Virus record (IMG/VR): IMGVR_UViG_3300021368_000006
Span: 1 to 64,000 of that record
Direction: 5' to 3' (one strand)
Source of the DNA: an uncultured virus (IMG/VR IMGVR_UViG_3300021368_000006)
Lineage: Duplodnaviria; Heunggongvirae; Uroviricota; Caudoviricetes
DNA: 64,000 nucleotides
Positions 9,644 through 18,253 of this stretch are shown here, piece by piece (position 1 is the stretch's first letter; the number at the start of each line of letters is the position of its first letter). Below the pieces are notes generated by a model that ran no database searches, was not told the origin of the DNA, and saw only the letters and a list, made by a program, of their open reading frames with translations. A program made the position numbers and the translations under genes.

Positions 9644-9720
9644 CTGCCCTTAGCTCAGCTGGATAGAGCAACAGCCTTCTAAGCTGTGGGTCGTAGGTTC
9701 GAATCCTACAGGGCAGGCCA
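9644..9720 (+). tRNA. tRNA-Arg (UCU)
   Basis: Cloverleaf with CTGCCCT/AGGGCAG acceptor stem, anticodon loop CTTCTAA, TTCGAAT T-loop, encoded CCA. Confidence 0.95.
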
Positions 9721-9726
9721 ATTAAT

Positions 9727-9950
9727 ATCGGGCGAGTCGGACGCTCGATTTGTCGAGTGAGTAAAAACACGGTTAAGCCTGAAAACGACACTAAATAGAA
9801 GACTCAGGTGGGAAGTTGGAAATCCCTCACTAGAAACCAACAAGATTAAACAGGGGCGGACAGTAGGAAGAGGCGACTAATGTATAAGAAAATAAAGCGG
9901 CCTGTAACCCCTCAAACTGCTAAAAGTAAAAACACCTACTGTCCCTTTTA
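9727..9950 (+). ncRNA. Candidate structured non-coding RNA(s) in tRNA cluster
   Basis: GC-richer stretch with no ORF >=60 codons and several complementary segments, including ggacagtagg/cctactgtcc. Confidence 0.4.
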
Positions 9951-9965
9951 TTCGGAGTTACTATA

Positions 9966-10169
9966 ATGCAAGTATCACCAGTACCACCAGTAAGAATTGT
10001 GAGTGAGTATGTTAGGCAACTAAATGTCGGTGATAAGATTCATAACATTGTAGTAACGCATAAAGACTTTGGAAACTCTGTTAGGGTTGAAGAAGTTTAT
10101 AGAACATACGACAAAACTGGAAAGATTAGAACAGTCGAACCAGTTAGTAAAGTTGATGTTGAAGTTTAG
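9966..10169 (+). CDS. Hypothetical protein
   Basis: GGAG RBS; stop abuts tRNA-Gly. Confidence 0.6.
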   Translation: MQVSPVPPVRIVSEYVRQLNVGDKIHNIVVTHKDFGNSVRVEEVYRTYDKTGKIRTVEPVSKVDVEV

Positions 10170-10243
10170 GCGGATGTCGTATAATGGTATTACCTTAGCC
10201 TTCCAAGCTAATGACAGGGGTTCGATTCCCCTCATCCGCTCCA
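10170..10243 (+). tRNA. tRNA-Gly (UCC)
   Basis: GCGGATG/CATCCGC acceptor stem, anticodon TCC, CCA end. Confidence 0.95.
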
Positions 10244-10252
10244 AAAATTTAT

Positions 10253-10329
10253 CGGGGTATAGCGCAGTCTGGTAGCGCATCTGCTTTGGGAGCAGAGGGT
10301 CGTTGGTTCGAATCCAGCTACCCCGACCA
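10253..10329 (+). tRNA. tRNA-Pro (UGG)
   Basis: CGGGGTA/TACCCCG acceptor stem, anticodon TGG, CCA end. Confidence 0.95.
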
Positions 10330-10341
10330 ATTTAGGAATAT

Positions 10342-10417
10342 TCCCAGATAGCTCAGTTGGTAGAGCAAATGACTGTTAATCATTGGGTCGGGGGTTCGAA
10401 CCCCTCTCTGGGAGCCA
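10342..10417 (+). tRNA. tRNA-Asn (GUU)
   Basis: TCCCAGA/TCTGGGA acceptor stem, anticodon GTT, CCA end. Confidence 0.95.
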
Positions 10418-10438
10418 AATAAACAGTAAGGACACAAG

Positions 10439-10723
10439 ATGTATAAACCTCTACCAGAAGAAGTAACAATAAAAAAATCAGGTATACATGGACTTGGCCT
10501 TTGGTGTGTAAAACCGATCAAAGAAGGAACAGAGATCGGAATGTCACATTTTTATTGGGGAGAAGAATTGCAAAGAACTCCATTGGGTGCTTTTTATAAT
10601 CACTCTGATGAGCCGAATATAGTAAAGATTAGAAAAGATAGTAGGTTCTTTATTGTTGCCACTAGAGATATTTGGCCAGGCGAAGAACTTACATGTGAGT
10701 ATACATTATACGACATAAAATAA
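10439..10723 (+). CDS. Minimal SET-domain protein (putative lysine methyltransferase)
   Basis: KSGIHGLGL, YNHSDEPN and ATRDI.PGEELTCEY are the SET signature motifs. Confidence 0.88.
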   Translation: MYKPLPEEVTIKKSGIHGLGLWCVKPIKEGTEIGMSHFYWGEELQRTPLGAFYNHSDEPNIVKIRKDSRFFIVATRDIWPGEELTCEYTLYDIK

Positions 10724-10861
10724 ACTTATACCCCATAAAAAATTTCTGTGCAAAAAAGTCTTGATTTCTTATACTTTTTTGATATATACTAGTATCTGTT
10801 AGTAATTAATCATTTACTAATATATTAGCACTACCGCACCAATTGGTGCAAGGAAAATACA

Positions 10862-11128
10862 ATGAAAACTTTAATCGCAATTTTGGCAATGACTTCGACT
10901 TCTGCATTTGCATTTATCAATGATGGTAATGGCAATTCGTCTGGTGGCGCATCATCTACAATGAACGGTGACGCAGAAGGCCGTGGTGTTGCAACCTTCT
11001 CTATGAACTTCTCTGCATCTGCAAACACCAAAGCAGACTTTGATGCAGATGGTGAAGGTTCGATGCAGAACATGTTCTCTGGTGAGGATACGTCATACTA
11101 CTATCGCCCAGAGGGTTACGGTAAATAA
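10862..11128 (+). CDS. Secreted Gly/Asn/Asp-rich small protein
   Basis: Sec signal peptide ending AFA; AAGGA RBS. Confidence 0.7.
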   Translation: MKTLIAILAMTSTSAFAFINDGNGNSSGGASSTMNGDAEGRGVATFSMNFSASANTKADFDADGEGSMQNMFSGEDTSYYYRPEGYGK

Positions 11129-11140
11129 TAAATTTACCTA

Positions 11141-11169
11141 TTGACAATCACTCCTCATTGAGTTACACT
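11141..11169 (+). promoter_or_regulatory. sigma70-type promoter
   Basis: TTGACA-N17-TACACT. Confidence 0.65.
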
Positions 11170-11269
11170 GGCTATTAAGTGAATTTGATGAGGAGTGAAA
11201 AAGGATTTATATATTATGAAAATGCATTCTAATTAAGTTGGAGTTAACTTTAAAAGAATAGGAACAGTT

Positions 11270-11467
11270 ATGTCACTTGGGTTTAGGGACAATTACCAAA
11301 ACATAATTAAGAATTTAGTTCAGAACGCCGATCAGTGCAGTCAACAATGGATACTTACTGGAGATGCAGAATGGTATGAAGCATACATGATGTATGTTGA
11401 AAAGGTATGTGAATTAAAGGAATGGATTAAAAAAAGAGAAAGTGAAATAGAAAATACGCCGCTGTAG
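11270..11467 (+). CDS. Hypothetical protein
   Basis: AGGA RBS; last codons overlap tRNA-Thr. Confidence 0.55.
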   Translation: MSLGFRDNYQNIIKNLVQNADQCSQQWILTGDAEWYEAYMMYVEKVCELKEWIKKRESEIENTPL

Positions 11468-11533
11468 CTCAGTTGGTAGAGCAACTGATTTGTAATCAGT
11501 AGGTCGGGAGTTCGAATCTCTCTAGCGGCACCA
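11458..11533 (+). tRNA. tRNA-Thr (UGU)
   Basis: GCCGCTG/TAGCGGC acceptor stem, anticodon TGT, CCA end. Confidence 0.95.
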
Positions 11534-11538
11534 TTAAT

Positions 11539-11612
11539 ATGGGTGTGGTGTAGTGGCAACACATCAGTCTCCAAAACTGAAGATGGCAGTTCGATTCTGT
11601 CCGCCTGTGCCA
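11539..11612 (+). tRNA. tRNA-Trp (CCA)
   Basis: Anticodon arm tcagt-ctccaaa-actga, TTCGATT T-loop, CCA end; acceptor stem has 3 G-U pairs. Confidence 0.88.
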
Positions 11613-12972: not shown

Positions 12973-13244
12973 TGGGTGGAAAATCAAAGGGAAAGAATTA
13001 CACATCTAAGGGCGAACGCCCTAGTGTATCACGGAAGAATAGAACTAAAAACCCAAAAGGAACTCTTGCACATGCAATTCGTCAACGAGAGGCATGGCAG
13101 CAAGGAAAGAATGTAGTTCTTACAATTCCAAACCCAAATACCTCAGAAACAAATAAACCTTTTATAAGAGTTAAGGCAAGTGAGGTTTGGGGCGATTTTA
13201 GAAAACAGAAAAAGTTTATGATGAGAGGAGAACCGGCTGTATGA
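12972..13244 (+). CDS. Basic hypothetical protein of T4-like phages
   Basis: YTSKGER...AW.QGKNVVLTIPNPN...NKPFIRV. Confidence 0.7.
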   Translation: MGGKSKGKNYTSKGERPSVSRKNRTKNPKGTLAHAIRQREAWQQGKNVVLTIPNPNTSETNKPFIRVKASEVWGDFRKQKKFMMRGEPAV

Positions 13245-13828
13245 TAGAAGGATTTAGACCACCTTGTGTGGTATTCAGAACTAGGGTTAGAGATGAATCA
13301 ATCGAAGGCCCAAACCCATTTAGATGGGAAGATGTAACAAGTGATGAATTGTTTAAAGGTAAGAGAGTAGTTTTATTCAGTTTGCCCGGCGCATTTACGC
13401 CCACTTGTTCTACATACCAATTGCCAGGCTTTGAGAGTAATTATTCAAAGATTAAAGATTATGGTATTGACGAAGTATACTGCATTTCAGTTAACGATGC
13501 ATTTGTTATGAATGCATGGGCCAAGGCACAGAACATTCAAAATGTAAAAGTGATTCCAGATGGTTCTGGAAACTTTACTCGTTTCATGGGAATGTTGATT
13601 GGTAAAAACCACTTAGGTTTTGGTATGCGTAGTTGGAGATACATGTGTGTAATTAATGATGGGGTTGTTGAACATTGGTGGCAAGAGCCAGGCATCAATA
13701 ACGATGGTAGTGATGATGACCCATATGTTCAAACAACTCCAGAAAATATGATTAGTTATCTAGATCAGAAAAGTATGTGGAATGAAGTTGAACAACGAAC
13801 CACTATGGGCGATTATAAGGTTGTTTAA
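13241..13828 (+). CDS. Peroxiredoxin (Prx5/redoxin family)
   Basis: LPGAFTPTCS active site; SVNDAFVMNAW; DGSGNFT; RSWRY. Confidence 0.93.
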   Translation: MIEGFRPPCVVFRTRVRDESIEGPNPFRWEDVTSDELFKGKRVVLFSLPGAFTPTCSTYQLPGFESNYSKIKDYGIDEVYCISVNDAFVMNAWAKAQNIQNVKVIPDGSGNFTRFMGMLIGKNHLGFGMRSWRYMCVINDGVVEHWWQEPGINNDGSDDDPYVQTTPENMISYLDQKSMWNEVEQRTTMGDYKVV

Positions 13829-14625
13829 TGTATGATATAAGGCCCCTTCACAAGAATAATGCTTCTGTATTTGTTGCAGAACGCCATTATTCTGCAGTTA
13901 TGCCTCGATTAACTAAACATTATCTAGGTTTTCACTTAGATGATAAGTTGGTTGGGGTTTTAACATTAGGATGGGGAACTAATCCGATGGGAACTATTAA
14001 AAAGATGTTTCCAGATTTGACTACATCCGATTACTTTGAGATCGGAAAGATGTGCATGGATGATTCTATGCCCAGAAACTCCGAATCCCAAATGTTATCT
14101 CAAACGGTAAAGTGGATGCGTGAAAATACAGATGCAAAATATCTGTATACTTGGGCAGATGGAATAGTTGGAAAGCCAGGATATGTTTACCAATCTGCAA
14201 ACTTTCTTTACGGCGGTTTTATATGGTCTGATGTATATGTCTCTGAGACAGGCGAGAAGGTGCATTTTAGGACTATACAGAGGAAGATGAAGAAAGAGAT
14301 GGGTAGACATGATACGAAGTATGGCCCTCGACCAAATGACGCCAAAATGGGTGATATGGGGTTTTCAAGAGTATGGGGTAAACAGTTCAGATATATCTAT
14401 CCATTGACAAAAACAGATAGAAAGTATATGAATAGATATTCAACTTGTTGTTGGACAAATCAGTATCCAAAAGATGATGATTTGCAGTGGAAAATTAAAC
14501 GGCCTGGCGAAACAGAATACGAATGGTGTGATGATATGCCATTCATTCACAGTAATGACATAAAACATAATAAGAGTAATATCGCAAGATACAAGGCAGA
14601 TATTACGATTGATAGTTTTTTTTGA
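13828..14625 (+). CDS. Mom-like (GNAT-fold) DNA base-modification protein
   Basis: HYS, EIGKMC...PRNSES..LS, TWAD...GYVYQSANFLYGG motifs like Mu Mom relatives. Confidence 0.7.
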   Translation: MYDIRPLHKNNASVFVAERHYSAVMPRLTKHYLGFHLDDKLVGVLTLGWGTNPMGTIKKMFPDLTTSDYFEIGKMCMDDSMPRNSESQMLSQTVKWMRENTDAKYLYTWADGIVGKPGYVYQSANFLYGGFIWSDVYVSETGEKVHFRTIQRKMKKEMGRHDTKYGPRPNDAKMGDMGFSRVWGKQFRYIYPLTKTDRKYMNRYSTCCWTNQYPKDDDLQWKIKRPGETEYEWCDDMPFIHSNDIKHNKSNIARYKADITIDSFF

Positions 14626-14775
14626 TAACCTATATAATTGTGGAGTATATAATGAAAAGATCAAATATAAATCAATTAAGGATTAGATTGCGAGACGCAA
14701 GGTCAAGGATGAGGCAATATTTACAACGACAGGCGTATATAAACAGACAGATGAAAATATCTCAGGAGATTAATA

Positions 14776-15303
14776 ATGGAAGACTATAGTACAAAATACA
14801 CTTTTAGTAGTGTACACGATGACGGGGGCAAAGAAGATGTTGTTACTTATTCATTTGATGGGACAGATGCAACACTTGGTGAAGTGTTGGAGAAAATCGA
14901 AATCTTTTTGATCGCTGCAGGTTTTGATTGGATTAAGAAAGGTGAAATTCAACATATCGAAAGTGTTTCCGATGAAGACTATGACCTTGCTGCAGGAAAA
15001 GAATTATTTGATGAATATTCTGTAAGTGCAGAAGAAATGTATAATAGACTTAATGGTTTAGATACCACTGCCAAAATTGTTGAATTTCCTAAAAAAGAAG
15101 ATTCAGAAGATACCATAACATTAACTGGTAATGGGTTGGATGATTTGCTTTTTACTGGAGATTATGACATCGGTTCTGTCACCTTCGATAATATGGATGT
15201 CACACTAGATACTTCTGATATCACTTTTACAGACTCATATAATGTGTCACTTACTCCAAGTGATATTACAATTAATTTTGACAAAGACAAAGAAAAGGAT
15301 TAA
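14776..15303 (+). CDS. Acidic hypothetical protein
   Basis: AGGAG RBS; FL.AAGF motif; Asp/Thr-rich C-terminus. Confidence 0.65.
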   Translation: MEDYSTKYTFSSVHDDGGKEDVVTYSFDGTDATLGEVLEKIEIFLIAAGFDWIKKGEIQHIESVSDEDYDLAAGKELFDEYSVSAEEMYNRLNGLDTTAKIVEFPKKEDSEDTITLTGNGLDDLLFTGDYDIGSVTFDNMDVTLDTSDITFTDSYNVSLTPSDITINFDKDKEKD

Positions 15304-15305
15304 AA

Positions 15306-15761
15306 ATGACTTTTAAATTATCAAACAGATCACTTTCTAAACTGGAAGGTGTTCATGATGACATGGTTAGAGTTGTCAGCCGTGCTATCGAATTGACTGA
15401 GGTCGACTTTGGAGTGATCCAAGGTTTAAGAACTCTTGAAGAACAAGAGGCTTTAGTTGCTAAGGGTGCAAGTCAAACAATGAAGAGTAAGCATCTTGAC
15501 GGACTTGCAGTAGACTTAATGGCTTATGTTGGAGGCCGTGGAGTCTGGGAACTCAATGTGTATGATGAAGTTGCAGACGCAATGAAGGCCGCTGCAATAG
15601 AAGAAGGTGTAGCAGTCCGCTGGGGCGCAGCCTGGCACATTGATGACATTAGAGAGTGGGATGGTTCCATGGAAGACGCCATGAACGCCTATGTTGATTT
15701 GAGGCGCTCTCAAGGAAGACGCCCATTTATTGACGCTCCACACTTTGAGCTGATGGTATGA
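15306..15761 (+). CDS. Endolysin, peptidase M15 (L-Ala-D-Glu peptidase type)
   Basis: LS.RS...LEGVH, GLRT.EEQ, SKHLDGLAVDL, DAPHFEL. Confidence 0.9.
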   Translation: MTFKLSNRSLSKLEGVHDDMVRVVSRAIELTEVDFGVIQGLRTLEEQEALVAKGASQTMKSKHLDGLAVDLMAYVGGRGVWELNVYDEVADAMKAAAIEEGVAVRWGAAWHIDDIREWDGSMEDAMNAYVDLRRSQGRRPFIDAPHFELMV

Positions 15762-15955
15762 AAATAAGTTGGGGGTACTTTGTGTGTATCCCCATAGTTT
15801 CTTACTTTATCCTTTTATTCCTTTTAGGTTTATTTGGAAAAAGTTTAATGGTATTTACACCAGAAGAAAATATCGTATTGTATGAATTTCTTGGTGTTGT
15901 ATTATTACACTATATTTTTTATATTATTTTTTGCTTGACAAAAATAAAAGAATAG
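15758..15955 (+). CDS. Two-TM membrane protein (possible lysis accessory)
   Basis: ATGA overlap with endolysin; hydrophobic; 3' end overlaps the ssrA promoter. Confidence 0.4.
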   Translation: MKISWGYFVCIPIVSYFILLFLLGLFGKSLMVFTPEENIVLYEFLGVVLLHYIFYIIFCLTKIKE

Positions 15956-15965
15956 TGTATAAATA
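15935..15965 (+). promoter_or_regulatory. Composite sigma70 plus T4-late promoter for tmRNA
   Basis: TTGACA-N17-TATAAA where the -10 box is part of TATAAATA. Confidence 0.7.
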
Positions 15966-15969
15966 AACT

Positions 15970-16350
15970 TGTAATTGTTGATACGATTCAACATGCATAC
16001 TGGACTTGGGGGCAGTACCCAACGCCTCCACCATAAACACATGAGGATATAATGAATTGGGATTGGCACTGGATTAGTTGGTTTAAAGGAACACCTTTTC
16101 AATGGGGCGAATTTAGATTTAACAGTGGGAATCCTTATAAAAGTTATAGATTTGGGCCATTACTTATTCGTGTGTTTATGATGGGGGCGAACTAGGATCG
16201 ACAGGTGTGTAGAGATGAGAGTAGATTACCGTGTTGACCTACGATATTCGGTCGAACAAAACTAAACGCAAACGATAACTTTGCACCTGAATTTGCTCTA
16301 GCAGCATAATCAGCGGGGTATGGGCTCCACCTTGTTACCAAACGGGCCCG
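15970..16350 (+). ncRNA. ssrA: Two-piece circularly permuted tmRNA (alphaproteobacterial type)
   Basis: Acceptor piece ends GGCAGTA T-loop...CGCCTCC-A-CCA at 16033; coding piece starts GGGGGCG at 16183 with G3-U70; tag frame 16268-16309 = ANDNFAPEFALAA*; outer ends approximate. Confidence 0.93.
16052..16195 (+). CDS. 47-aa Trp/Phe-rich peptide encoded in the tmRNA intervening segment
   Basis: GAGGA RBS then ATG; MNWDWHWISWFKGTPFQWGEFRFNSGNPYKSYRFGPLLIRVFMMGAN*. Confidence 0.55.
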   Translation: MNWDWHWISWFKGTPFQWGEFRFNSGNPYKSYRFGPLLIRVFMMGAN

Positions 16351-16375
16351 CAGTCATAGTAAAAGGATTTAATAA

Positions 16376-16723
16376 ATGACAAAGTTTTTAGTTGGAGCCG
16401 CTTCGGCGGTTTTTTTATGCACATCTGCAATGGCAGAAGGCATTAGAGGCCATGTAGATGGTGAAGTTGAATATAGTTTGGAAAATGAAAAATTTACATC
16501 TGAATTAGGATACACAATGGCACTTCCACAAGGATTGGTGCTGCGCCCATGGGCAGATTTTTCATATGACCGTAACTTAGCATCTGATACAATTAATTTT
16601 GACGGTGTTAATTTGGGAGTTTCATATGCAGTATCTCCTGCACTTTCTCTTTACAGTGATATTAGTGCAGATCATGACTTTGAATATGAAGATACATCAG
16701 TTGGTGTTCGCTTTACATTCTGA
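16376..16723 (+). CDS. Small outer-membrane beta-barrel-like protein
   Basis: Signal peptide (SAMA), alternating beta-strand pattern, C-terminal VGVRFTF BAM-type signal. Confidence 0.7.
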   Translation: MTKFLVGAASAVFLCTSAMAEGIRGHVDGEVEYSLENEKFTSELGYTMALPQGLVLRPWADFSYDRNLASDTINFDGVNLGVSYAVSPALSLYSDISADHDFEYEDTSVGVRFTF

Positions 16724-16799
16724 GTTTCATACTATATAATAAAGGTGGCAACTTCCTATAAAGTTGCTAATTACACACATCACACAGAAAAGGAGAAAT

Positions 16800-17051
16800 A
16801 TGATGAGTAATAAAAATCCATTTGAAATTAGATTAGAAGTTTTAAAAATGGCAAAAGATATGTCTGAACAAAGTTACCATATGGCAATGGATACATATTG
16901 GCAAACTTTGAATGCGACTGCAGAGACATGGAATAAAAGTGTTGAGGAATTGGTTCAACATACACAACACTTGAAACCAGAAATGCCCGCCCCTCAAGAC
17001 ATTATGAAAAAGGCTCAAGAGTTGTATACTTTTATTTCAACTAAAGAGTAA
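16800..17051 (+). CDS. Hypothetical protein of T4-like phages
   Basis: KNPFEIRLEVLKMAK...AQELYTF; AAGGAG RBS before ATG 16800. Confidence 0.75.
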   Translation: MMSNKNPFEIRLEVLKMAKDMSEQSYHMAMDTYWQTLNATAETWNKSVEELVQHTQHLKPEMPAPQDIMKKAQELYTFISTKE

Positions 17052-17056
17052 ATTTG

Positions 17057-17083
17057 ATGGGGGGTGCAATGCCCCCCATTTTT
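17057..17083 (+). terminator. Rho-independent terminator
   Basis: atggggggt-gcaat-gccccccat stem followed by T-run. Confidence 0.8.
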
Positions 17084-17226
17084 AAAAATGCGTGAAACGC
17101 AAGGTTGTAGACATTGTTAGTGATATATAATGATAGAGGTAATTAAACCTCTAAAACCTTAACCAATGGAATACTATTGTGAAAAATAAATTCACGCAAG
17201 AACTTATTATGGAGAAACAATAAATT

Positions 17227-17496
17227 ATGCCAAGATATGATTTTAAATGTACTGATTGTGAACATGAATATGAAATTTGGTGTCGTATTGCTGAAAGAGA
17301 AGAACATTTAAATGGCTCTTGTCCCAACTGTAACGTTACAGGAAAAATCCAACAATTTCTTACTGGTGCTCCTTCTATTGGAGATCCTATTCGTATGGGC
17401 AGACAAAAGGTTCCACAATCATTTAAGGAGAATGTATTAGATAAAGTGGCAAAGGTGCCTGGAGCAGCTAAAACAGAGTCTAAATTTAATATGTAA
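17227..17496 (+). CDS. FmdB-family zinc-ribbon protein
   Basis: MPRYDFKCTDC...CPNC. Confidence 0.85.
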   Translation: MPRYDFKCTDCEHEYEIWCRIAEREEHLNGSCPNCNVTGKIQQFLTGAPSIGDPIRMGRQKVPQSFKENVLDKVAKVPGAAKTESKFNM

Positions 17497-17536
17497 TTTT
17501 TCGCCGTAGATTCCAGCTTTCAGAGGAGTCTCATTA

Positions 17537-18253
17537 GTGAGTAGAAAAGCTAGAAAGACAAAATCAAACAATAATAGTAGATTAATAGGGATTGACGCAC
17601 GAACACAACTAAAAAAAATTACACCAATAACACCGGCACAAGAAGAAGTATTCGATGCCTTTTATGAAGATCATTTGTTTCTTCATGGAGTTGCAGGGAC
17701 AGGAAAAACATATATTTCTCTATACCTTGCACTAGATGAATTAATGAACAAATCTTCTAGTTATAGAGATATACAAATTATCAGAAGTGTTGTTCCGACA
17801 AGGGATATGGGTTTTCTGCCCGGCTCGGAAAAACAAAAACTTCAATCATACGAAACCCCATATAGAACCATAATAAACGAATTATTCGAATGCGGTAGTG
17901 CATACGAAAGTTTACGAAAAACTTCCCTCATAAATTTTAATTCAACATCTTACATAAGAGGTATGACCTTTTATGATAGTATTATTATTGTGGATGAATG
18001 CCAGAACATGAATTTTCATGAACTGGATTCTGTCATAACTAGAATAGGAGACAACTGTAAAATAATTTTCTGTGGAGACTTTAGACAGTCAGACTTTAAA
18101 TGGAAAGATGAAAAAGATGGAATACTTGACTTTATGAAAATCATAAAAAGTATGGATCGTTTTTCTTTCATTGAGTTTATGCAACAAGATATTGTCAGAA
18201 GTCCTTTGGTAAAATCCTACATAATTAATAAATTAGAATTGGGTTTTGCCTAA
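17537..18253 (+). CDS. phoH: PhoH-like ATPase
   Basis: GVAGTGKT Walker A, GFLPG, RGMTF, IVDECQN, GDFRQSD, DIVRS. Confidence 0.95.
   Translation: MSRKARKTKSNNNSRLIGIDARTQLKKITPITPAQEEVFDAFYEDHLFLHGVAGTGKTYISLYLALDELMNKSSSYRDIQIIRSVVPTRDMGFLPGSEKQKLQSYETPYRTIINELFECGSAYESLRKTSLINFNSTSYIRGMTFYDSIIIVDECQNMNFHELDSVITRIGDNCKIIFCGDFRQSDFKWKDEKDGILDFMKIIKSMDRFSFIEFMQQDIVRSPLVKSYIINKLELGFA

What the first reader, a model, noticed from the sequence alone, without database searches (positions are those of the whole stretch)
16032..16195. Protein-coding gene nested in the tmRNA intervening segment, with its stop codon inside the mature tmRNA: a possible self-sensing ribosome-rescue circuit
Seen: the spacer between the CCA end (16033) and the mature 5' end (16183) is 149 nt and is closed by a perfect 10-bp stem (cataaacaca 16032-16041 / tgtgtttatg 16171-16180). 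It is almost entirely filled by an ORF with a GAGGA RBS (16052-16195; 47 aa, five Trp). The TAG lies 10 nt inside the coding piece. Known: this spacer is excised during maturation of two-piece tmRNA (RNase P makes the 5' end) and is normally regarded as non-coding; arfA is a precedent for regulation via non-stop mRNA and tmRNA tagging. Inference: the precursor yields full-length peptide, whereas the excised spacer is a non-stop mRNA whose product would be tagged and degraded by tmRNA itself. Ribosomes on the ORF would also unwind the processing stem. This would couple peptide level to RNase P and trans-translation capacity. I know of no description of this arrangement.
Basis: partly seen in the sequence, partly recalled or inferred. 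Interest (0 to 1): 0.85.

Follow-up and report, generated by a model that had tools for sequence, protein, structure and literature searches.

The report
Small phage gene inside tmRNA spacer
A real, conserved mini-gene for a 43-47-residue protein sits in the stretch of a phage two-piece tmRNA precursor that is cut out during maturation, and such spacer-lodged mini-genes are common in marine phages, but the proposed self-sensing ribosome-rescue circuit does not look like the reason it is there.

Summary

The ORF is a genuine gene. 70 viral loci encode relatives, with dN/dS 0.13 in frame against 2.7 and 1.3 out of frame. A profile finds 61 clusters of 40-60 aa proteins. AlphaFold gives a confident four-stranded sheet ending at residue 42.

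It is also general. 30 of 54 long phage tmRNA spacers carry a spacer-filling ORF, against about 6 in controls, and cellular spacers are short.

The stop inside tmRNA looks incidental:
- 6 of 39 spacer-lodged relatives have their own stop.
- Other relatives lie in the tmRNA leader, beside it, or far from any tmRNA.
- The same tmRNA allele occurs with 149-, 103- and 39-nt spacers.

Best reading: the loop of the pre-tmRNA processing hairpin is a swap site for small early-expressed gene cassettes. No description was found in print. There is no expression evidence.

The parts
15935..15963 (+). sigma-70-like promoter of the pre-tmRNA: TTGACA (15935-15940), 17 nt, TATAAA (15958-15963)
   Evidence: Read by eye. 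The same TTGACA-17-TATAAA layout stands before the Melnitz ssrA and in L164 and L151. The consensus scanner missed it because it requires a T at position 6 of the -10 box. The Melnitz paper places its ssrA right after an early promoter (PMC9004378, section 8).
15971..16033 (+). tmRNA acceptor piece (T arm, 3' acceptor strand CGCCUCC, discriminator A, CCA at 16031-16033)
   Evidence: Rfam RF04321 and RF01849 alignments; ARAGORN.
16034..16182 (+). intervening segment (149 nt), removed on maturation
   Evidence: It lies between the CCA and the 5' acceptor strand. Removal itself is inferred from what is known of two-piece tmRNA.
16032..16045 (+). 5' arm of the processing stem (10 perfect pairs at 16032-16041; the predicted fold extends it to 14 pairs including G-U pairs)
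   Evidence: covariation across 86 viral spacers; compensatory TAAGCAC/GTGCTTA in L317.
16167..16180 (+). 3' arm of the processing stem; also encodes residues I39-M43 of the peptide
16043..16169 (+). 127-nt gene cassette (SD plus codons 1-39), the part that is present or absent between otherwise near-identical phages
   Evidence: Contigs of near-identical phages join 16042 to 16170 with 17 or 51 other letters between. L317 and L313-315 carry the same tmRNA allele with a 39-nt or a 103-nt spacer.
16043..16047 (+). Shine-Dalgarno GAGGA; its first three bases are paired in the predicted stem
   Evidence: In the listing the upstream GAGG is kept in the spacer-lodged relatives except L129 and L140.
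16052..16195 (+). ORF of 47 aa (MNWDWHW...RVFMMGAN), a member of a small phage protein family with the motif RFNSGNPYxSYRxGP
16183..16352 (+). tmRNA coding piece: 5' acceptor strand GGGGGCG at 16183-16189 and the tag reading frame at 16268-16309 (ANDNFAPEFALAA, then stop)
16391..16416 (+). terminator-like hairpin plus T run at the end of the ARAGORN tmRNA call
   Evidence: consensus match only.

Best explanation
The window is part of a marine T4-like myophage, kin of Methylophilales phage Melnitz, that carries its own alpha-type two-piece tmRNA gene.

In these phages the CCA end of the acceptor piece and the 5' leader of the coding piece pair into a conserved hairpin. The loop of that hairpin, which is the intervening segment, tolerates any content because it is discarded. 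The loop has become a swap site for small gene cassettes.

Here it holds a 127-nt cassette (16043-16169) with a Shine-Dalgarno site and the first 39 codons of a widespread small phage protein. The core of about 42 residues is predicted to be a four-stranded beta-sheet. The last codons and the stop are borrowed from the 3' arm of the stem and the first 13 nt of the mature tmRNA.

Shown:
- The gene is real and under purifying selection.
- The stem is conserved by covariation.
- The cassette is optional and exchangeable.
- Relatives work with their own stop codons and outside tmRNA genes.
- Unrelated cassettes fill the same loop in other phages.

Inferred:
- The gene rides on the strong early tmRNA promoter.
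- It is translated from the nascent precursor before the stem, which covers part of the SD, can close.
- RNase P and 3' processing then release the two tmRNA pieces and discard the spacer.
- The position of the stop inside the tmRNA is a by-product of where the cassette was joined.
- The peptide acts as an early accessory protein whose target is unknown.
For: Coding:
- 70 of 81 candidate stretches in viral contigs encode a relative, and there are 26 protein clusters.
- The 43-codon core aligns without gaps.
- dN/dS is 0.13 for 24 unique close sequences and 0.22 for 14 distant ones. The shifted frames give 2.67/1.28 and 1.49/1.18. Variable columns by codon position are 9/10/25.
- A profile search finds 61 clusters at E<=1e-3, nearly all 40-60 aa.
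- AlphaFold2 on 60 sequences gives pLDDT 88.9 with strands 2-7, 16-24, 27-34 and 37-42, and a weaker tail at 43-47.

Generality:
- Of 54 non-redundant viral spacers of at least 90 nt, 30 have an ATG-ORF covering at least 70% of the spacer, 19 of them with an SD.
- The reverse strand gives 6 (1 with an SD). Shuffles give a mean of 5.9, maximum 12 (with an SD: mean 0.38, maximum 3).
- 77 cellular spacers have a median of 34 nt; 2 reach 90 nt and none of those has such an ORF.
- Three other spacer ORF families have dN/dS 0.18, 0.12 and 0.44.

Stop is incidental:
- 33 of 39 spacer-lodged members stop in the tmRNA and 6 stop in the spacer.
- The gene lies in the 5' leader in L191 and upstream of the promoter in L164/L165. 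L149, L150, L154, L160, L171-L190 and L192 have no tmRNA within 1.5 kb.
- L150 and L154 keep about 10 nt of the tmRNA 5' end at a non-tmRNA site.

Swap site:
- The same tmRNA allele occurs with spacers of 149, 103 and 39 nt.
- Contigs of near-identical phages replace 16043-16169 by 17 or 51 letters.
- The spacer is 88.5% identical among 24 unique loci, against 68% for each tmRNA piece. Flanks beyond the tmRNA are unalignable in 9 of the 10 loci compared.
Against: - There is no evidence of transcription, translation or processing for this locus. The four runs laid are assembled contigs of RNA libraries, which may hold DNA, and they gave no cover of 16074-16141.
- Most spacer-lodged members (33 of 39) do keep the stop inside the tmRNA. 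All 30 spacer-filling ORFs run into the 3' arm. A selected coupling between translation and processing is therefore not excluded.
- The pairwise dN/dS values are not phylogenetically independent.
- The peptide has no Pfam or PHROG family and no structural match, so 'early accessory protein' is only a category.
Confidence: 0.68

Rival explanations
1. Self-sensing circuit. The precursor yields the full peptide. The excised spacer is a stop-less message whose product is tagged by tmRNA and degraded, so the peptide level reports RNase P and trans-translation capacity. The arrangement would be selected for that purpose.
For: - The geometry is as required. There is no in-frame stop before 16182, and the cut at 16182/16183 splits codon 44.
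- The run-off product would be 43 aa. That is the same length as the natural own-stop variants L155-L159, and it contains the whole predicted fold.
- 33 of 39 spacer-lodged relatives keep the stop inside the tmRNA.
- 14 of 30 spacer-filling ORFs of other families do the same.
Against: - 6 of 39 spacer-lodged members, and every member outside a spacer, have their own stop.
- The tail after F42 varies with the acceptor stem and is outside the fold.
- The frame choice across families (10 at the TGA, 14 inside the tmRNA, 6 own stop) shows no preference for the stop-less outcome.
- The cassette is dispensable in near-identical phages.
Confidence: 0.12
2. The peptide works on trans-translation or on the tmRNA itself, for example by binding tmRNA, SmpB or the ribosome. 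That would explain why it keeps company with tmRNA genes in several different arrangements.
For: The family is found inside the spacer (39 loci including the window), in the 5' leader (L191), directly upstream of the promoter (L164/L165), and next to a second tmRNA copy (L151).
Against: - 25 loci carry it without any tmRNA within 1.5 kb. Some lie next to a DNA ligase gene, and in L160 the two copies lie beside thymidylate synthase and purM-like genes.
- Several of the W-rich copies outside tmRNA genes carry tmRNA-derived flank remnants. That points to recombination out of a tmRNA site rather than to a functional link.
- Unrelated peptide families occupy the same loop.
Confidence: 0.1
3. The cassette is mainly a selfish passenger. 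It would spread between phage tmRNA genes by recombination or by homing-endonuclease-driven gene conversion of the tmRNA region, and the peptide would contribute little.
For: - The spacer is more conserved than the tmRNA that hosts it.
- There is presence/absence polymorphism.
- In L151 an HNH endonuclease gene sits between a broken cassette-bearing tmRNA copy and an intact copy.
- In L160 the gene is duplicated, the two copies lie beside a thymidylate synthase gene, and a junction sequence is repeated.
Against: - Strong purifying selection on the protein and a confident conserved fold argue that the product matters.
- No endonuclease gene lies next to the window's tmRNA.
Confidence: 0.08
4. 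It is not a gene: the open frame would be a by-product of a conserved RNA structure in the spacer.
For: The spacer folds well (z = -4.66) and is highly conserved at the DNA level.
Against: - The substitution pattern is that of a coding region in one frame only.
- Distant relatives keep the protein motif with a different DNA sequence and at non-tmRNA sites.
- Most of the fold's energy comes from the closing stem, which exists without the cassette.
Confidence: 0.02

Closest known systems
Permuted (two-piece) tmRNA genes of Alphaproteobacteria and their phages (Rfam RF01849/RF04321; Melnitz ssrA)
   Same: The gene order is acceptor piece, then intervening segment, then coding piece. The tag ends in ALAA and an early promoter precedes the gene.
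   Different: In the literature I could read, the intervening segment is treated as non-coding. The 2025 tmRNA database paper mentions only a tRNA gene and a repeat element inside one, and the word ORF does not occur in it (passages). The Melnitz paper never uses the word 'intervening' (passages) and mentions no spacer ORF in the section I read (section 8). The four Melnitz records annotate only 'SsrA' over their spacer ORF. Cellular spacers are short, with a median of 34 nt.
arfA of E. coli (regulation through a stop-less mRNA and tmRNA tagging); recalled, not read here
   Same: An RNA-processing cut upstream of the stop codon would make a stop-less message whose product tmRNA would tag. The truncated product would still hold the whole fold.
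   Different: In arfA the arrangement is the point of the gene. Here relatives do without it. In addition the cut here is the maturation of the tmRNA itself.
Homing-endonuclease genes inside group I introns of tmRNA, tRNA and rRNA genes
   Same: A protein gene sits in a part of a structural-RNA gene that is removed from the transcript. The 2025 database paper reports introns in 883 tmRNA sequences.
   Different: There is no intron here: the only Rfam matches in the window are tmRNA and tRNA. The segment is removed by tRNA-type end processing, and a 43-47 aa beta-sheet peptide is too small to be an endonuclease.
Small exchangeable ORFs of the hyperplastic regions of T4-type phages (PeSL cassettes; PMC2839356 and PMC4122927, search listing only)
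   Same: Small genes of unknown function are swapped between related T4-like phages at sites bounded by a promoter and a stem-loop. Here the bounds are the tmRNA promoter and the processing stem.
   Different: The dock here is the inside of a functional RNA gene. The stem belongs to the RNA's own maturation and the cassette borrows its stop codon from it. I did not test for PeSL motifs.

Membership tests
Permuted (two-piece) tmRNA, alpha type | tRNA-like domain with the T arm and 3' acceptor strand plus CCA lying upstream of the 5' acceptor strand | tested here: met
   RF04321 at 123.2 bits (gathering score 47) and RF01849 at 114.6 bits (gathering score 50), both over the full model. ARAGORN reports tmRNA*.
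Permuted (two-piece) tmRNA, alpha type | Tag reading frame with a resume codon and a proteolysis tag ending in ALAA | tested here: met
   ANDNFAPEFALAA followed by a stop at 16268-16309.
Permuted (two-piece) tmRNA, alpha type | The intervening segment is excised, with the 5' end made by RNase P | not testable with these tools
   Only the conserved closing stem speaks for it. The runs laid were contigs, which cannot show RNA ends.
Protein-coding gene | Frame kept open in relatives, with purifying selection in that frame only | tested here: met
   All 38 unique core sequences are open up to codon 41. dN/dS is 0.13 and 0.22, against more than 1 in the other two frames.
Protein-coding gene | Translation signals | tested here: met
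   GAGG lies 5 nt before the ATG. It is kept in the spacer-lodged relatives except L129 and L140 (listing), and free-standing relatives have GGAG-type sites of their own.
Protein-coding gene | The product is made | not testable with these tools
   No Ribo-seq or proteome was at hand. The RNA-library contigs gave no cover of the cassette.
arfA-like control by a stop-less mRNA | Stop codon downstream of an RNA-processing cut, with no earlier in-frame stop | tested here: met
   This is sequence geometry only: the TAG is at 16193-16195 and the predicted cut is at 16182/16183.
arfA-like control by a stop-less mRNA | The arrangement is conserved among homologues | tested here: not met
   6 of 39 spacer-lodged members, and all members outside spacers, have their own stop.
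arfA-like control by a stop-less mRNA | The product is tagged by tmRNA and degraded | not testable with these tools
   Needs an experiment.
Group I intron with a nested ORF in a tmRNA gene | Intron core structure in the inserted segment | tested here: not met
   No intron family reaches its gathering score in the window. The insert also lies between the CCA and the 5' end, not in the T loop.
PeSL-type mobile cassette of T4-type phages | Early promoter plus stem-loop motifs flanking the exchanged ORF | not tested
   I saw the papers only as a search listing. The analogy rests on the promoter and stem seen.
Known protein families (Pfam, PHROGs, PDB folds) | Significant match to a profile or to a solved fold | tested here: inconclusive
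   No Pfam or PHROG hit for 5 members. Best Foldseek E-value is 2.2. Best VIA Z is 4.2, to TolB and WD40 propeller blades. hhalign against an FG-GAP protein gives probability 1.5%.

The most novel reading that the evidence does not exclude
The closing hairpin of phage pre-tmRNA is a dedicated expression dock for exchangeable mini-genes. Each cassette would be translated only from the nascent precursor, because the stem later covers part of the SD and the spacer is cut out. For the roughly half of cassettes that borrow their stop from the mature tmRNA, any translation of the excised spacer would be policed by the tmRNA itself. Peptide dose would thus be tied to tmRNA synthesis, RNase P activity and trans-translation capacity.
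Probability: 0.15. Interest if true: 0.8.

Novelty: new variant of a known kind. Interest (0 to 1): 0.62.

Why it matters
The intervening segment of two-piece tmRNA genes is treated as discarded filler. Here it proves to be a frequent home of small, selected protein genes in abundant marine phages, and annotation pipelines skip them because an RNA feature covers the site.

- It adds a class of hidden phage mini-proteins. The family studied here has 61 clusters and no known fold.
- It shows an RNA-processing hairpin serving as a gene-swap site.
- It gives a natural system in which translation, RNase P processing and trans-translation meet on one transcript.
- A cultured phage-host pair with such a spacer ORF exists (Melnitz on OM43 strain H5P1), so the questions can be tested directly.

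Tried and rejected
- Expression: the four RNA-library runs I laid are assembled contigs. They gave no cover of 16074-16141 and cannot show RNA ends or strand. This says nothing about expression.
- Function of the peptide: Pfam and PHROGs gave nothing for 5 members. The ESM Atlas returned only unnamed clusters at scores of 0.80 or less. Foldseek on the PDB gave a best E-value of 2.2. The VIA wide search gave a best Z of 4.2, to single propeller blades.
- A profile hit to a repeat protein with FG-GAP domains did not hold up in hhalign, with probability 1.5%.
- The first AlphaFold run, on 24 sequences, was poor (pLDDT 65.5).
- tblastn of the peptide, and of a distant relative, against 50,697 GenBank phage records found nothing.
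- The founding papers on two-piece tmRNA (PMC16621, PMC516066) are not held. My statement that spacer ORFs are undescribed therefore rests on seven full-text searches and on the passages and section read in two papers. Supplements were not consulted.
- 'Not coding, only RNA structure' was considered and rejected.

Full report
**1. What is there**

The window is the first 64 kb of a 72.8-kb IMG/VR virus record judged 36% complete. Its nearest named relatives at this locus are the four Melnitz myophages of Methylophilales (Kyanoviridae), at 77% identity over the conserved tmRNA parts.

ARAGORN finds six tRNA genes at 9644-11612 and a permuted tmRNA at 15940-16400 with tag ANDNFAPEFALAA. Rfam confirms it with RF04321 at 123.2 bits and RF01849 at 114.6 bits.

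- CCA at 16031-16033 and the 5' strand from 16183, giving a 149-nt spacer.
- A perfect 10-bp stem, 16032-41 with 16171-80.
- GAGGA at 16043-47.
- An ORF at 16052-16195 of 47 aa with five Trp.
- A TAG 10 nt inside the mature piece.

A TTGACA-17-TATAAA promoter stands at 15935-15963. I read it by eye, and the same layout occurs in Melnitz, L164 and L151. A terminator-like hairpin follows at 16391.

**2. The ORF is a gene**

A search with the peptide found 70 viral loci and 26 protein clusters. The 43-codon core aligns without a gap and carries the motif RFNSGNPYxSYRxGP.

| Set | dN/dS in frame | dN/dS in the two shifted frames |
|---|---|---|
| 24 unique close sequences | 0.13 | 2.67 and 1.28 |
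| 14 distant sequences | 0.22 | 1.49 and 1.18 |

In the close set the variable columns fall 9/10/25 on codon positions 1/2/3.

A profile search of 1.84 billion representatives gave 61 clusters at E<=1e-3, almost all 40-60 aa. With 60 sequences AlphaFold2 gives pLDDT 88.9 and four antiparallel strands (2-7, 16-24, 27-34, 37-42). The last five residues are less confident.

Nothing known matches:
- Pfam and PHROGs give no hit.
- The best Foldseek E-value is 2.2.
- The best VIA Z is 4.2, to propeller blades.
- hhalign to an FG-GAP protein gives probability 1.5%.
- 50,697 GenBank phage records hold no relative of the window peptide or of one distant family member at the tblastn thresholds used.

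**3. The phenomenon is general**

A pattern in the T arm and acceptor strand, blind to spacer content, fetched 120 viral loci and 120 loci from cellular genomes.

| Measure | Viral | Cellular |
|---|---|---|
| Non-redundant spacers | 94 | 77 |
| Median length | 96.5 nt | 34 nt |
| Spacers of 90 nt or more | 54 | 2 |
| Of those, with an ATG-ORF covering at least 70% | 30 (19 with an SD) | 0 |

For the 54 long viral spacers, the reverse strand gives 6 such ORFs (1 with an SD). 200 dinucleotide shuffles give a mean of 5.9 and a maximum of 12; with an SD the mean is 0.38 and the maximum 3.

The ORFs fall into several unrelated families. Three of these have dN/dS of 0.18, 0.12 and 0.44. One of the three is Melnitz's own spacer ORF, which its GenBank records cover only with an 'SsrA' feature.

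**4. The stem belongs to the tmRNA, not to the cassette**

Across 86 viral spacers the ten pairs are 92% paired, against 31-57% when the partner is slid by 1-3 columns. Pair types are frequently compensatory, for example AT 59, GC 22 and TA 3 at one pair.

The window's precursor region folds at -53.6 kcal/mol, z = -4.66. In that fold the stem extends to 14 pairs and covers the first three bases of the SD.

**5. The stop inside the tmRNA is incidental**

Placement of the gene in the 70 relative loci and the window:

| Placement | Count |
|---|---|
| In a spacer, stop inside the mature tmRNA (31 at +13, L146 at +25, L166 at +8) | 33 |
| In a spacer, own stop inside the spacer (L155-159 at -17, L162 at -106) | 6 |
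| Cut by a contig end | 3 |
| 5' leader of a pre-tmRNA (L191) | 1 |
| Just upstream of a tmRNA promoter, behind a T-arm/CCA remnant (L164/L165) | 2 |
| After the acceptor piece of a broken tmRNA copy (L151) | 1 |
| No tmRNA within 1.5 kb (L149, L150, L154, L160 with two copies, L171-L190, L192) | 25 |

In L151 an HNH endonuclease gene and an intact second tmRNA follow the broken copy.

L150 and L154 still carry about 10 nt of a tmRNA 5' end. So at least some free-standing copies left a tmRNA site.

The residues after F42 (MMGAN, LRGAN, LRGAK, MRGSK, MKGLK, MRGVN and others) follow the acceptor stem of the host tmRNA.

In the unbiased set of 30 spacer-filling ORFs, 14 stop inside the tmRNA, 10 stop at a TGA abutting the 5' end and 6 stop 7-15 nt before it. 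The TGA is present in 73 of 94 spacers, and a stop at +11..+13 in 72 of 94. The tmRNA flank therefore supplies a stop in two of the three frames, and no frame looks favoured.

**6. The cassette is exchangeable**

A 26-nt exact match to the window's acceptor piece found five viral loci with nearly the same promoter and both tmRNA pieces. Their spacers differ: 149 nt with the ORF (L316), 103 nt without an ORF (L313-315), and 39 nt (L317). L317 has a compensatory change in the stem.

Contigs from three RNA libraries cover 15705/15880-16042 and 16170-16700 at 93-99% identity. They replace 16043-16169 by 17 or 51 other letters.

Among 24 unique spacer-lodged loci the spacer is 88.5% identical. ORF third positions are 84% identical, the acceptor piece 68.5% and the coding piece 67.8%. 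The spacer beats both tmRNA pieces in 241 of 276 pairs. Outside the tmRNA the loci are unalignable with the window in 9 of the 10 loci compared; the exception is L124, a near-identical genome.

**7. Reading**

The loop of the pre-tmRNA processing hairpin serves as a dock for small gene cassettes that ride on the early tmRNA promoter. The window's cassette encodes a selected beta-sheet mini-protein of unknown target.

Three points follow from the sequence:
- Translation must open the stem.
- The stem covers part of the SD.
- The excised spacer of this member lacks a stop.

Whether any of this is used for regulation is open. The run-off product (43 aa) would equal the natural own-stop variants and hold the whole fold, so an arfA-like behaviour is physically possible. 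The comparative data show the family does not depend on it.

**8. Literature**

Seven full-text searches found no description of coding spacers.
- The 2025 tmRNA database paper (passages) notes a tRNA gene and a repeat element in intervening sequences and never uses the word ORF.
- The Melnitz paper never uses the word 'intervening' (passages). Its section 8 describes the two-piece tmRNA, an early promoter and a glutamine riboswitch, and says nothing about the spacer.
- The founding papers were not available.

**9. Limits**

- There is no expression evidence of any kind.
- The redundancy filter is heuristic.
- dN/dS is pairwise.
- The structure is predicted.

Noticed in passing
L151:996-2111: A tmRNA acceptor piece with the peptide cassette has lost its coding piece. 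It is followed by an HNH endonuclease gene on the minus strand (1251-1757; Pfam HNH 22.6 bits) and then by a complete second permuted tmRNA with a 32-nt spacer, which Rfam scores best as beta type. This looks like a homing-endonuclease event in a tmRNA gene.
   Followed up: partly
L160:687-1644: There are two copies of the peptide gene, one on each side of a thymidylate synthase gene. The junction sequence is repeated at the end of copy 1 and the start of copy 2. A purM-like gene follows.
   Followed up: partly
L164:1-700: The peptide gene sits between a T-arm/CCA remnant and the promoter of a complete tmRNA. That tmRNA's own spacer holds a different 37-aa ORF (367-477) with no Pfam hit.
   Followed up: partly
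L191:1400-1830: A family member starts 6 nt after a -10-like box, so its message may be leaderless. It fills the 5' leader of a pre-tmRNA whose spacer (75 nt) has no long ORF.
   Followed up: no
L313-L315 (spacer of 103 nt): A third spacer allele of the window's own tmRNA lineage has no ORF and an unrelated sequence. I did not examine what it is.
   Followed up: no
window 16376-16723 (+): A 115-aa ORF with a signal-peptide-like start begins inside the 3' end of the ARAGORN tmRNA call and contains the terminator-like hairpin at 16391-16407. It has no Pfam family.
   Followed up: no
window 9644-11612: A cluster of six tRNA genes (Arg-TCT, Gly-TCC, Pro-TGG, Asn-GTT, Thr-TGT, Trp-CCA) lies 4 kb upstream of the tmRNA.
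   Followed up: no
window 13241-18253: Neighbouring genes are a peroxiredoxin-like gene (Redoxin), a Mom-family DNA modification protein (164.5 bits), a peptidase M15, a zinc-ribbon protein and PhoH. No endonuclease gene lies next to the tmRNA.
   Followed up: partly
window 16183-16400 versus Melnitz: The Melnitz paper reports a glutamine riboswitch in the 3' domain of its ssrA. No riboswitch family reaches its gathering score anywhere in this window.
   Followed up: partly
L129 and L140 (spacer start): Two spacer-lodged relatives with an identical peptide have lost the GAGGA: the sequence before the ATG is replaced.
   Followed up: no
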